A stretch of 64,000 nucleotides of DNA. Origin: the human T2T-CHM13v2.0 reference genome, Homo sapiens. The stretch's first letter is position 1. Every line of letters starts with the position of its first letter. This document shows, piece by piece, positions 1 through 2,842 of the stretch. The notes beneath the pieces are model-generated. The model was not told the origin of the DNA. It did not search any database and saw nothing but the letters and a program-made list of their open reading frames with translations. The position numbers and the translations under genes were made by a program. The DNA lies in NCBI RefSeq assembly GCF_009914755.1, contig NC_060935.1. One strand, written 5' to 3'.

Positions 1-2842
1 CCACCGATCCCCCCAGAGAATACTACAAACACCTCTTCGCAAATAAACTAGAAAATCTAGAAGAAATGGATAAATTCCTTGACACATACACTCTCCCAAG
101 ACTAAACCAGGAAGAAGTTGAATCTCTGAATAGACCAATAACAGGATCTGAAATTGTGGCAATAATCAATAGCTTACCAACCAAAAACAGTCCAGGACCA
201 GATGGATTCACAGCCGAATTCTACCAGAGGTACAAGGAGGAACTAGTACCCTTCCTTCTGAAACTATTCCAATCAATAGAAAAAGAGGGAATCCTTCCTA
301 ACTCATTTTATAAGGCCAGCATCATTCTGATACCAAAGCCGGGCAGAGATACAACCAAAAAAGAGAATTTTAGACCAATATCCTTGATGAACATTGATGC
401 AAAAATCCTCAATAAAATACTGGCAAAATGAATCCAGCAGCACATCAAAAAGCTTATCCACCATGATCAAGTGGGCTTCATCCCTGGGATGCAAGGCTGG
501 TTCAATATACGCAAATCAATAAATGTAATCCAGCATATAAACAGAGCCAAAGACAAAAACCATGTGATTATCTCAATAGATGCAGAAAAGGCCTTTGACA
601 AAATTCAACAACCCTTCATGCTAAAAACTCTCAATAAATTTGGTATTGATGGGACATATTTCAAAATAATAAGAGCTACCTATGACAAACCCACAGCCAA
701 TATTATACTGAATGGGCAAAAACTGGAAGCATTCCCTTTGAGAACTGGCACAAGACAGGGATGCCCTATCTCACCACTCCTATTCAACATAGTGTTGGAA
801 GTTCTGGCCAGGGCAATTAGGCAGGAGAAGGAAATAAAGGGTATTCAATTAGGAAAAGAGGAAGTCAAATAGTCCCTGTTTGCAGACGACATGATTGTAT
901 ATCTAGAAAACCCCATTGTCTCAGCCCAAAATCTCCTTAAGCTGATAAGCAACTTCAGCAAAGTCTCAGGATACAAAATCAATGTGCAAAAATCACAAGC
1001 ATTCTTATACACCAACAACAGACAGACAGAGAGCCAAATCATGAGTGAACTCCCATTCACAATTGCTTCAAAGAGAATAAAATACCTAGGAATCCAACTT
1101 ACAAGGGACATGAAGGAGCTCTTCAAGGAGAACTACAAACCACTGCTCAAGGAAATAAAAGAGGATACAAACAAATGAAAGAACATTCCATGCTCATGGG
1201 TAGGAAGAATCAATATCGTGAAAATGGCCATACTGCCCAAGGTAATTTACAGATTCAATGCCATCCCCATCAAGCTACCAATGACTTTCTTCACAGAATT
1301 GGAAAAAACTACTTTAAAGTTCATATGAAACCAAAAAAGAGCCCGCATCGCCAAGTCAATCCTAAGCCAAAAGAACAAAGCTGGAGGCATCACACTACCT
1401 GACTTCAAACTATACTCCAAGGCTACAGTAACCAAAACAGCATGGTACTGGTACCAAAACAGAGATATAGATCAATGGAACAGAACAGAGCCCTCAGAAA
1501 TAACGCCGCATATCTACAATTATCTGATCTTTGACAAACCTGAGAAAAACAAGCAATGGGGAAAGGATTCCCTATTTAATAAATGGTGCTGGGAAAACTG
1601 GCTAGCCATATGTAGAAAGCTGAAACTGGATCCCTTCCTTACACCTTATACAAAAATCAATTCAAGACGGATTAAAGACTTAAATGTTAGACCTAAAACC
1701 ATAAAAACCCTAGAAGAAAACCTAGGCATTACCATTCAGGACATAGGCATGGGTAAGGACTTCATGTCTAAAACACCACAAGCAATGGCAACAAAAGCCA
1801 AAATTGACAAATGGGACCTCATTAAACTAAAGAGCTTCTGCACAGCAAAAGAAACTACCATCAGAGTGAACAGGCAACCTACAAAATGGGAGAAAATTTT
1901 CGCAACCTACTCATCTGACAAAGGGCTAATATCCAGAATCTACAATGAACTCAAACAAATTTACAAGAAAAAAACAAACAACCCCATCAAAAAGTGGGCG
2001 AAGGACATGAACAGACACTTCTCAAAAGAAGACATTTATGCAGCCAAAAAATACATGAAAAAATGCTCATCCTCACTGGCCATCAGACAAATGCAAATCA
2101 AAACCACAATGAGATACCATCTCACACCAGTTAGTATGGCAATCATTAAAAAGTCAGGAAACAACAGGTGCTGGAGAGGATGTGGAGAAATAGGAACACT
2201 TTTACACTGTTGGTGGGACTGTAAACTAGTTCAACCATTGTGGAAGTCAGTGTGGCGATTCCTCAGGGATCTAGAACTGGAAATACCATTTGACCCAGCA
2301 ATCCCATTACTGGGTATATACCCAAAGGACTATAAATCACACTGCTATAAAGACACATGCACACGTATGTTTATTGCGGCATTATTCACGATAGCAAAGA
2401 CTTGGAACCAACCCAAATGTCCAACAATGATAGACTGGATTAAGAAAATGTGGCACATATACACCATGGAATACTATGCAGCCATAAAAAATGATGAGTT
2501 CATGTCCTTTGTAGGGACATGGATGAAATTGGAAATCATCATTCTCAGTAAACTGTCGCAAGAATAAAAAACCAAACACCGCATATTCTCACTCATAGGT
2601 GGGAATTGAACAATGAGATCACATGGACACAGGAAGGGGAACATCACACTCTGGGGACTGTTGTGGGGTGGGGGGGAGGGAGGAGGGATAGCATTGGGAG
2701 GTATACCTAATGCTAGATGATGAGTTAGTGGGTGCAGCACACCAGCATGGCACATGTATACGTATGTAACTAACCTGCACAATGTGCACATGTACCGTAA
2801 AACTTAAAGTATAATAATAAATAAATAAATAAATAAATAAAA
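1..2842 (+). mobile_element. LINE-1 'A' (L1PA2-like), 3' part of ORF2 + 3'UTR + (TAAA)n tail; continues beyond the left window edge; ORF2 disabled
   Basis: ORFs 66-431, 471-872, 891-1178 and 1749-2567 are L1 ORF2 pieces (RT motifs, CWRGC..HCWWDC knuckle) broken by stops (e.g. TAG at 870-872 just before FADD). 3'UTR has GAGATCACATGG and GATGAGTTAGTG (GAG rather than the L1HS ACA) and CTTAAAGTATAAT. Confidence 0.95.

What the first reader, a model, noticed from the sequence alone, without database searches (positions are those of the whole stretch)
1330..2564. Parental L1s were pre-homogenised: a gene-conversion tract of about 1.2 kb that primed the rearrangement
Seen (by-eye counts): A vs C differ at roughly 35 sites over A 259-1329 and about a dozen over 2565-2810, but only 7 over 1330-2564 (1504, 1520, 1685, 1754, 2300, 2340, 2341). 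In that tract both carry the same alleles that depart from the L1 consensus as I recall it (1417C, 1668C, 1779C, 1817C, 1820C, 2052T, 2072C, 2088C, 2135T, 2279G, 2390G, 2555G). The in-window L1 at 60403 shows the other state at 2072, 2088, 2135, 2279 and 2390. Inference: non-allelic gene conversion, or earlier duplication/deletion cycles, between neighbours 8 kb apart created the 545-bp perfect match later used for crossover. This would be a self-reinforcing conversion-then-NAHR hotspot that titrates the copy number of the enclosed LTR12C.
Basis: partly seen in the sequence, partly recalled or inferred. Interest (0 to 1): 0.8.

Follow-up and report, generated by a model that had tools for sequence, protein, structure and literature searches.

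The report
L1 pair homogenised before tandem duplication
Two neighbouring copies of the human L1 retrotransposon have swapped about 1.2 kb of sequence, and a very recent 8.2-kb tandem duplication has its junction inside that shared stretch; this is a clear but ordinary example of a known process.

Summary
The deficit is not chance: binomial p 5e-9, 0 of 5000 scan permutations, and the lowest tract/flank ratio of 300 L1 pairs.

Against 62 L1 copies from the same genome, A and C are nearest relatives only in the tract (rank 1 of 59; flanks 54 and 59 of 61). All 12 shared alleles are real. Seven are rare (0-1 of 58-61 comparators) and five are sub-lineage variants. The 40-mer carrying 2072C and 2088C occurs genome-wide only in A, B and C.

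Best reading: non-allelic exchange before the duplication, most likely gene conversion from C into A with a hint of GC bias. B is a clean C/A hybrid that switches inside the 545-bp perfect block, and the duplicated units are otherwise identical. That the tract "primed" the crossover is plausible but rests on one event. The hotspot idea and the L1PA2 and LTR12C names were not tested. Known kind, new instance.

The parts
1..2840 (+). L1 copy A, 3' 2.8 kb of a near full-length element that continues about 3.2 kb upstream of the window. An A-rich tail follows to about 2866.
   Evidence: RVT_1 matches at 330-1100 in the ORF2 frame. L1 ORF1 domains lie 1.25-2.3 kb upstream of the window start (L067). 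Comparator L1s align through the upstream 1.5 kb.
260..1329 (+). Left flank of the A/C homology, not homogenised.
   Evidence: 36 A/C events, 3.36%. C ranks 54th of 61 by distance to A here.
1330..2564 (+). Low-divergence tract in A at its maximal extent. The minimal extent is 1504-2341.
   Evidence: 7 differences, 0.57%. A and C are mutual nearest relatives, rank 1 of 59. The A+C clade has SH-aLRT 99. 7 rare shared alleles.
1755..2299 (+). 545-bp block of perfect A/C identity, which is the crossover interval of hybrid B.
   Evidence: No differences here. B equals C up to 1754 and equals A from 2300.
2565..2840 (+). Right flank of the homology (end of ORF2 and the 3' UTR), not homogenised.
   Evidence: 15 events over 2565-2810, 6.1%. 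Ranks 35 and 58 of 59.
2867..8446 (.). Spacer, copy 1 (5580 bp), the non-L1 part of the 8192-bp unit.
   Evidence: Identical base for base to 11059-16638.
8454..11032 (+). Hybrid L1 copy B: C-type 5' part and A-type 3' part, with no private difference. It is preceded by a copy of C's 5' target-site duplication at 8438-8453.
   Evidence: Every variable column is either B=C (up to the position matching A 1754) or B=A (from 2300). The 16-mer is at 8438.
9947..10491 (+). Crossover interval in B, matching A 1755-2299.
   Evidence: offset 8192.
11059..16638 (.). Spacer, copy 2.
16646..19210 (+). L1 copy C, an independent 5'-truncated insertion flanked by the 16-bp target-site duplication AAAGAATAATCATTAT at 16630-16645 and 19211-19226.
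17714..18948 (+). The tract in C.

Best explanation
A and C are two independent, same-orientation L1 insertions of similar age. They lay 8.2 kb apart before the duplication.

Well after both had begun to decay, about 0.8-1.2 kb of the ORF2 3' part (A 1330-2564 at most, 1504-2341 at least) was copied from one to the other by non-allelic homologous repair. The most likely form is one or a few non-crossover gene-conversion events with C as donor and A as recipient. The transfer carried the donor's own post-insertion mutations into the recipient and erased the recipient's. It left the pair 99.4% identical there, with a 545-bp perfect block.

Much later, within roughly the last 0.2-0.4 Myr under assumed rates of 1e-9 to 0.5e-9 per site per year, an unequal crossover between A and C resolved inside that block. 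It produced hybrid B and a tandem duplication of 8192 bp.

Shown:
- The tract and its statistics.
- The rare shared alleles and their genome-wide uniqueness as a haplotype.
- The independent origin of C.
- The clean hybrid B and the identical units.

Inferred:
- Conversion rather than a double crossover.
- The direction C to A.
- GC bias.
- That the identity block raised the chance of the crossover.

My split: some non-allelic exchange about 0.95; before the duplication about 0.85 of that; conversion rather than a duplication-deletion cycle about 0.7 of that.
For: (1) Divergence. A/C divergence is 0.57% in the tract against 3.4% on the left and 6.1% on the right, where 48 events are expected in the tract at the flank density. 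Binomial p is 4.8e-9 and 0 of 5000 scan permutations match it. It is the lowest ratio of 300 pairs, while comparator pairs show 1.97% against 2.06%.

(2) Nearest relatives. Against 62 genome L1 copies (27 nearest to the tract, 29 nearest to A's left flank, 6 nearest to C's left flank), C's rank from A is 54 of 61 (left), 1 of 59 (tract) and 35 of 59 (right). A's rank from C is 59 of 61, 1 of 59 and 58 of 59. In the tract the next nearest copy is at 1.94% from A and 1.54% from C. With a left flank as query, neither copy appears among the other's 40 scored genome hits.

(3) Trees. In the tract A+C has SH-aLRT 99, with end branches 0.0064 (A) and 0 (C). In the flanks the end branches are 0.021 and 0.015. 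C sits in a 96/89 clade with L049, L063 and L064, and A sits elsewhere.

(4) Allele classes. Rare (0-1 comparators) A-private alleles number 19 in the flanks and 4 in the tract (17.8 expected). C-private: 11 and 0 (10.3 expected). Rare shared: 1 and 7 (0.9 expected). Fisher p is 9e-5.

(5) Haplotype uniqueness. The 40-mer with 2072C and 2088C matches exactly only A, B and C in the 3.1-Gb genome. 79 other sites carry one of the two alleles. The 70-mer at 1765-1834 is 100% identical only in A, B and C among 40 scored of 1737 candidates.

(6) Coding effect. Rare shared alleles are 5 nonsynonymous to 2 synonymous, as for neutral decay. Shared sub-lineage alleles are 1 to 5, as for variants inherited from active sources (Fisher p 0.10).

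(7) GC bias. Shared tract alleles are 9 weak-to-strong against 2 strong-to-weak. Flank private changes are 15 against 26 (Fisher p 0.015). With rare alleles only it is 5:0 against 10:12, p 0.047. This test was post hoc.

(8) Direction. Comparators with C's left-flank markers 341A/356A carry 2279G in 9 of 11. Those with A's marker 986G carry it in 2 of 8 (read from the table). The remaining tract differences are 6 on A and 1 on C.

(9) Order of events. B inherits the 7 tract differences in phase with one switch. The duplicated units have 0 further differences in 8192 bp.

(10) C's origin. C has its own 16-bp target-site duplication.
Against: - The AU test on the flanks does not reject a tree with A and C together (11.7 log-likelihood units worse, p 0.32). 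With the quick tree the constrained search even scored higher. The family is star-like, so incongruence rests on distances and ranks, not on a rejected topology.
- One rare shared allele (871A, 0 of 61) lies in the left flank. A second (1025G) is shared or not depending on the alignment of an ACAG repeat. Some shared rare alleles could therefore be inherited from a rare common source.
- A tract of 0.8-1.2 kb is long for a non-crossover conversion, which is usually under 500 bp according to passages of PMC3790853.
- The 6:1 asymmetry of remaining differences is not significant (p 0.125).
- No comparator carries 1820C, 2279G and 2390G together, so the direction argument is soft.
- The genome searches score only 40 of thousands of candidates, so a closer third copy is not strictly excluded except at the 40-mer.
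- Only one haplotype was seen.
Confidence: 0.75

Rival explanations
1. Duplication-deletion cycle. An earlier unequal crossover made a hybrid L1, and a second unequal crossover at a different point removed the extra unit. This left A (or C) with an internal patch of the partner's sequence. No non-crossover conversion is needed.
For: The locus demonstrably undergoes unequal crossover: hybrid B and the 8192-bp duplication. A patch of 0.8-1.2 kb is easy to obtain this way and long for a typical conversion (passages of PMC3790853). The sequence outcome is identical to a conversion tract.
Against: It needs two crossovers at a time when the longest perfect A/C blocks would have been about 150 bp or less, as in today's flanks. 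Both intermediates would also have had to spread. The weak-to-strong bias of the shared alleles fits heteroduplex repair better. None of this is decisive.
Confidence: 0.2
2. Homogenisation after the duplication, with hybrid B as bridge. B is identical to C on its left and to A on its right, so misaligned repair could have copied C-type sequence from B into A left of the junction and A-type sequence from B into C right of it.
For: The tract is roughly centred on B's crossover interval, with 425 bp to its left and 265 bp to its right. B offers kilobases of perfect identity to both neighbours.
Against: Seven differences remain inside the tract, while the 8192 duplicated bases have none. The differences would all have to be sites skipped by conversion. 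Right of the junction the shared alleles 2279G and 2390G are of C's sub-lineage type, not A's, which is the opposite of what this model predicts.
Confidence: 0.06
3. No exchange. A and C descend from one rare source lineage, or one is the parent of the other, and the shared alleles are inherited.
For: 871A in the left flank is shared and absent from 61 comparators. The AU test does not reject an A+C clade in the flanks. 5 of the 12 shared alleles are sub-lineage variants.
Against: Common descent gives uniform A/C divergence. Observed divergence is 0.57% against 3.4-6.1%. Private alleles are depleted in the tract: 4 against 17.8 expected and 0 against 10.3 expected. In the flanks at least 38 genome copies are closer to each element than its partner.
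Confidence: 0.02
4. Assembly or polishing artefact, in which reads from three near-identical copies pulled A and C together.
For: The region is a tandem repeat with a hybrid copy. I could not examine reads or other assemblies.
Against: In the left flank B equals C, yet A keeps all its own alleles there, so no general pull towards the majority is seen. The 7 rare shared alleles are absent from other L1s, so they are not errors towards a consensus.
Confidence: 0.02
5. Lower mutation rate or purifying selection on the open 412-codon frame at 1329-2567.
For: In A the tract coincides with a stop-to-stop open frame, bounded by the A-private stops TGG>TGA at 1328 and CAA>TAA at 2565.
Against: 31 of 58 comparators are also open there. 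Comparator pairs diverge as much in the tract as in the left flank. 5 of the 7 rare shared changes are nonsynonymous. Selection would not make A and C nearest relatives.
Confidence: 0.01

Closest known systems
Interlocus (non-allelic) gene conversion between paralogous repeats in human segmental duplications
   Same: A contiguous segment with far lower paralogue divergence than its flanks, donor variants copied into the acceptor, no copy-number change, and a preference for intrachromosomal partners. Passages of PMC3790853 describe conversion and ectopic crossover as two outcomes of the same non-allelic repair.
   Different: The partners here are two independently inserted dispersed L1 copies 8 kb apart, not segmental duplicates. 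The tract (0.8-1.2 kb) is longer than the usual under-500 bp quoted there.
LINE-LINE-mediated non-allelic homologous recombination (Startek et al. 2015, PMC4344489)
   Same: Direct L1 pairs with about 96% identity or more are enriched at copy-number breakpoints. Crossovers map between paralogue-specific sites and cluster within about 500 bp inside the LINE pair (passages). Here a direct pair at 97.3% overall identity gave a tandem duplication with the junction in one interval.
   Different: That paper looked for a sequence motif to explain the clustering and found none. A word search of its main text finds 'gene conversion' 0 times. Here the junction interval is the product of an earlier sequence exchange, which offers a local explanation. 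The variant here is small (8.2 kb) and intergenic.
Transposable-element-mediated rearrangements in human genomes (Balachandran et al. 2022, PMC9675761)
   Same: L1-flanked duplications with both junctions in same-orientation elements are a recognised class: 96 LINE-1 events among 493, 33 duplications overall, and a median LINE-1 event length of 4.5 kb (passages).
   Different: No statement there, in the passages I read, about earlier homogenisation of the L1 pair.
   Same: Conversion keeps blocks of identity in which recurrent unequal crossovers then fall.
   Different: Those are recurrent, population-documented hotspots in larger repeats. Here there is a single event on a single haplotype.

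Membership tests
Interlocus gene-conversion tract | A contiguous segment whose paralogue divergence is significantly below that of the flanks | tested here: met
   7 events against about 48 expected; p 4.8e-9; 0 of 5000 scan permutations; lowest of 300 control pairs.
Interlocus gene-conversion tract | Paralogues are each other's closest relatives inside the segment but not outside it | tested here: met
   Ranks 1 of 59 in the tract against 54 and 59 of 61 (left) and 35 and 58 of 59 (right). A+C has SH-aLRT 99 in the tract.
Interlocus gene-conversion tract | Formal rejection of the paralogue clade in the flanks (topological incongruence) | tested here: inconclusive
   The careful flank tree separates A and C, with C in a 96/89 clade. 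The AU test, however, gives p 0.32 for holding them together.
Interlocus gene-conversion tract | Post-insertion (private) mutations of one copy present in both | tested here: met
   7 rare shared alleles in the tract against 0.9 expected. The joint 2072C+2088C 40-mer is unique to A, B and C genome-wide.
Interlocus gene-conversion tract | Unconverted ancestral state seen in an outgroup species or in other haplotypes | not testable with these tools
   Only this one human assembly is held.
Interlocus gene-conversion tract | Non-crossover origin, as opposed to two crossovers | not testable with these tools
   The sequence outcome is the same. Only the weak-to-strong bias leans towards heteroduplex repair.
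NAHR-mediated tandem duplication between L1s | Direct-orientation homologous repeats bounding the duplicated unit | tested here: met
   A, B and C are all on the + strand at a spacing of 8192 bp.
NAHR-mediated tandem duplication between L1s | The middle repeat is a hybrid with a single switch between parental types, in a stretch of identity | tested here: met
   B equals C up to 1754 and equals A from 2300, with no B-private site; the interval is 545 bp.
NAHR-mediated tandem duplication between L1s | Single-unit and/or deletion alleles exist in the population | not testable with these tools
   No other haplotypes are held.
LINE-1 (L1) retrotransposon | ORF2 reverse transcriptase, ORF1 domains, an A-rich 3' tail and a target-site duplication | tested here: met
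   RVT_1; Tnp_22_trimer, Transposase_22 and Tnp_22_dsRBD upstream; tails and C's 16-bp duplication.
   No repeat library is at hand. End branches of 0.021 and 0.015 in the flanks only say 'young primate L1'.

The most novel reading that the evidence does not exclude
The pair is a small self-sustaining recombination module. GC-biased conversion between two ordinary dispersed L1s builds and renews a block of perfect identity. Unequal crossovers then fall in that block and change the copy number of the enclosed 5.6-kb spacer, and each hybrid copy gives further conversion partners. On this reading the clustering of LINE-LINE NAHR junctions that Startek et al. could not tie to a motif would be explained by earlier conversion tracts. 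The adjacent A-specific and C-specific changes at both tract edges would be scars of the repair itself.
Probability: 0.2. Interest if true: 0.55.

Novelty: new member of a known kind. Interest (0 to 1): 0.33.

Why it matters
It is a clean, datable three-step record on one haplotype: insertion, exchange, then unequal crossover. It shows how two dispersed L1 copies that would otherwise share only short perfect blocks can acquire a 545-bp block and then undergo NAHR.

If the pattern is general, scanning L1 pairs for conversion tracts would improve prediction of where L1-mediated copy-number variants arise. It would also explain junction clustering without a motif.

For dating repeats, it is a reminder that divergence-based ages of neighbouring L1s can be locally reset. 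The locus itself is intergenic with no annotated element, so no direct functional consequence is evident.

Tried and rejected
- Purifying selection on the open frame at 1329-2567. Rejected: 31 of 58 comparators are open too, and the rare shared changes are mostly nonsynonymous.
- Regional mutation-rate difference. Rejected by comparator pairs.
- A third L1 as common donor. None is closer than 1.5-1.9% in the tract among the scored hits.
- PRDM9-type 13-mer (motif recalled) as a driver. The only matches in the L1s lie in the 3' UTR G-rich tract (2671-2683, 10863-10875, 19053-19065), outside the tract and also present in two other in-window L1s, so it is a generic L1 feature.
- Nested younger core. 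With 7 differences in 1235 bp, a gap of 546 bp or more has probability about 0.13, so one event suffices.
- Quick flank tree and AU test. The free search was poor, so I redid it with the careful search. The result was still not significant and is reported as such.
- A pattern search given as a window reference was not accepted by the tool. I used a 70-base DNA reference instead.
- Loci for C's left-flank neighbours could not be cut out in full. Only the top 6 of 38 non-self hits were fetched, so C's sub-lineage is thinly sampled.
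Full report
**Anatomy**

The first 19.2 kb of the window holds three same-strand L1 3' segments at a spacing of 8192 bp.

- **A** (window 1 to about 2840, plus an A-rich tail) is the 3' part of a near full-length element. RVT_1 matches cover about 330-1100 in one frame. L1 ORF1 domains lie 1.25-2.3 kb upstream of the window (L067). Other L1 copies align through the 1.5 kb upstream.
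- **C** is an independent, 5'-truncated insertion at 16646-19210. It is flanked by the 16-mer AAAGAATAATCATTAT at 16630 and 19211, and its first base corresponds to A 260.
- **B** (8454 to about 11032) is a hybrid. Every variable column is either B=C (up to A 1754) or B=A (from A 2300), and B has no private site. It is preceded by a copy of C's 5' target-site duplication (8438) and followed by A's 3' flank.
- **The two spacers**, 2867-8446 and 11059-16638, are identical over 5580 bp.

The structure is therefore A-spacer-B-spacer-C. This is the expected product of an unequal crossover between A and C, resolved somewhere in A 1755-2299.

**The observation**

| A coordinates | Events | Density |
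|---|---|---|
| 259-1329 | 36 (32 substitutions, 4 indels) | 3.36% |
| 1330-2564 | 7, at exactly the listed positions | 0.57% |
| 1755-2299 | 0 | 0% |
| 2565-2810 | 15 | 6.1% |

The two differences at 255 and 258 are C's target-site duplication aligned against L1 sequence, so I set them aside.

At the flank density about 48 events are expected in the tract. The binomial p is 4.8e-9, or 1.8e-9 with all 60 events. None of 5000 random placements gave a 1235-bp window with 7 events or fewer, or a gap of 546 bp or more.

**Controls with other L1 copies**

The window's own genome could be searched. I fetched three sets of comparators:

- the 27 copies nearest to A's tract;
- the 29 copies nearest to A's left flank;
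- the top 6 of 38 non-self hits to C's left flank.

These searches score only 40 of several thousand candidates, so they are not exhaustive.

Among 300 pairs of 25 copies, A-C has the lowest tract/flank divergence ratio: 0.16, against a median of 0.78 and a next-lowest of 0.38. Comparator pairs diverge equally in the tract (1.97%) and the left flank (2.06%). The region is therefore not intrinsically slow.

By distance, the ranks are:

| Region | C's rank from A | A's rank from C |
|---|---|---|
| Left flank | 54 of 61 | 59 of 61 |
| Tract | 1 of 59 | 1 of 59 |
| Right flank | 35 of 59 | 58 of 59 |

In the tract the pair is at 0.57%, and the next copy is at 1.94% from A and 1.54% from C.

In the tract tree A+C has SH-aLRT 99, with end branches 0.0064 (A) and 0 (C). 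In the careful flank tree the end branches are 0.021 and 0.015. C sits in a 96/89 clade with three comparators, and A sits in another group.

The AU test does not reject holding A and C together in the flanks (11.7 log-likelihood units worse, p 0.32). The earlier quick search was unreliable. The case for incongruence therefore rests on distances, ranks and branch lengths, not on a rejected topology.

**The shared alleles**

- Seven are rare: 1417C, 1779C, 2072C and 2135T in 0 of 58-61 comparators, and 1668C, 1817C and 2088C in 1.
- Five are sub-lineage variants: 1820C in 10 of 59, 2052T in 3 of 58, 2279G in 18 of 58, 2390G in 10 of 58, and 2555G in 3 of 58.

An exhaustive pattern scan shows that the 40-mer carrying both 2072C and 2088C occurs only in A, B and C. 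79 other sites carry one of the two alleles. The 70-mer at 1765-1834 is perfect only in A, B and C among the 40 scored of 1737 candidates.

Rare alleles by class, flanks against tract (the two pseudo-differences removed):

| Class | Flanks | Tract | Expected in tract |
|---|---|---|---|
| A-private | 19 | 4 | 17.8 |
| C-private | 11 | 0 | 10.3 |
| Shared | 1 | 7 | 0.9 |

Fisher p is 9e-5. This is the pattern expected if one copy's decayed sequence replaced the other's.

The rare shared changes are 5 nonsynonymous to 2 synonymous, as for neutral decay. The shared sub-lineage alleles are 1 to 5, as for variants that passed through active elements (p 0.10, so suggestive only).

**Mechanism and direction**

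A post hoc look at the spectrum gave a hint of GC-biased repair. Shared tract alleles are 9 weak-to-strong against 2 strong-to-weak, compared with 15 against 26 for private flank changes (p 0.015). With rare alleles only it is 5:0 against 10:12 (p 0.047).

Direction leans towards C to A:

- Comparators with C's left-flank markers 341A/356A carry 2279G in 9 of 11. Those with A's marker 986G carry it in 2 of 8 (table).
- C's branch in the tract is 0.
- The remaining differences are 6 on A and 1 on C (p 0.125).

No comparator has 1820C, 2279G and 2390G together, so this remains a lean, not a result.

**Order and timing (inference)**

B carries the seven tract differences in phase, and the duplicated 8192 bp show no other difference. 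The simplest order is exchange, then time for 0.57% divergence, then duplication.

With assumed rates of 0.5-1e-9 per site per year, the 95% upper bound for the duplication is about 0.37-0.18 Myr. The tract divergence is about one sixth of the flank divergence. This places the exchange long after insertion and probably on the human lineage, which can be tested in apes.

With 7 differences in 1235 bp, a 546-bp gap has probability about 0.13. The perfect block therefore needs no separate, younger event.

**What is not shown**

- That the block caused the crossover. Under a uniform model the junction falls in that interval with probability 545/2551, about 0.21. Outside the tract the longest perfect A/C block is 147 bp (839-985; the next is 91 bp), against 545, 223, 174 and 164 bp inside it (gaps). 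On general knowledge of the identity dependence of homologous recombination (recalled) the claim is reasonable, but one event cannot prove it.
- The 'self-reinforcing hotspot' and the 'titration of an LTR12C'.
- The names L1PA2 and LTR12C.

**Rivals**

- A duplication-deletion cycle gives the same sequence outcome and cannot be excluded. I give it about 0.2.
- Homogenisation after the duplication through hybrid B is disfavoured by the seven phased differences and by C-type alleles right of the junction.
- Common descent, selection on the open frame 1329-2567 (31 of 58 comparators are also open), rate variation, and a third donor are contradicted.
- An assembly artefact is unlikely, because A keeps all its own alleles in the left flank although B and C agree against it there.

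**Comparison with what is known**

- Interlocus gene conversion and ectopic crossover are described as two outcomes of non-allelic repair, with tracts usually under 500 bp (passages of PMC3790853).
- LINE pairs of about 96% identity or more are enriched at copy-number breakpoints, and junctions cluster within about 500 bp without a motif being found. A word search of that paper's main text finds 'gene conversion' 0 times (passages and word counts of PMC4344489).
- L1-flanked duplications are a recognised class (passages of PMC9675761).
- The coincidence of conversion and crossover hotspots in AZFa and CMT1A repeats is recalled, not checked.
- My four literature searches did not turn up a description of this locus. 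Their terms were general, not specific to this locus, so this is weak evidence of absence. I did not open any supplements.

**Verdict**

It is a new instance of a known kind of event and of modest interest.

Noticed in passing
window 1328-1329 and 2565-2566: At both edges of the tract the first A-specific and first C-specific change sit on adjacent bases: G>A in A next to A>G in C, and C>T in A next to a 1-bp deletion in C. The two A changes are both stop codons in the ORF2 frame (TGG>TGA, CAA>TAA). No other adjacent cross-lineage pair occurs in the flanks. This may be chance or edge-associated mutagenesis.
   Followed up: partly
window 839-985 (site 871): 871A is shared by A and C and absent from 61 comparators. 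It lies in the longest difference-free interval of the left flank (147 bp), so it may be a second, short exchange patch.
   Followed up: partly
window 1014-1025 and 17399-17406: A has an A>G change that makes three tandem ACAG units. C has two units (a 4-bp deletion), and the comparators shown (the first 6 of 62) have ACAGACAAACAG. C may have shared the change and then lost a unit by slippage; the alignment cannot decide.
   Followed up: partly
L067:823-1179 (about 3.5-3.9 kb upstream of the window start): An open frame with a COX6C match (PF02937, E 4e-14) lies just upstream of the 5' end of L1 A. It is probably a processed pseudogene fragment.
   Followed up: no
genome sites listed: 40-mers that carry 2088C alone cluster on contig 11 at 42.7-43.25 Mb (4 sites, on both sides of this locus), on contig 5 at 114-130 Mb (9 sites) and on contig 7 at 32.8-32.9 Mb (3 sites). 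This could reflect an older subfamily state or local duplications.
   Followed up: no
window 2671-2683, 10863-10875, 19053-19065, 55251-55263, 61153-61165: The degenerate 13-mer CCNCCNTNNCCNC (recalled PRDM9-type motif) matches the G-rich 3' UTR tract of every L1 3' end in the window. There are 8 matches in the window against 1.0 expected.
   Followed up: partly
The family was not verified.
   Followed up: no
L020 and L026 (contig 11 at 85.27 Mb and contig 2 at 36.12 Mb): This comparator pair is unusually close (0.49% in the tract, 1.29% in the flanks) and has the second-lowest tract/flank ratio of the 300 pairs. They may be sibling copies or another exchange.
   Followed up: no
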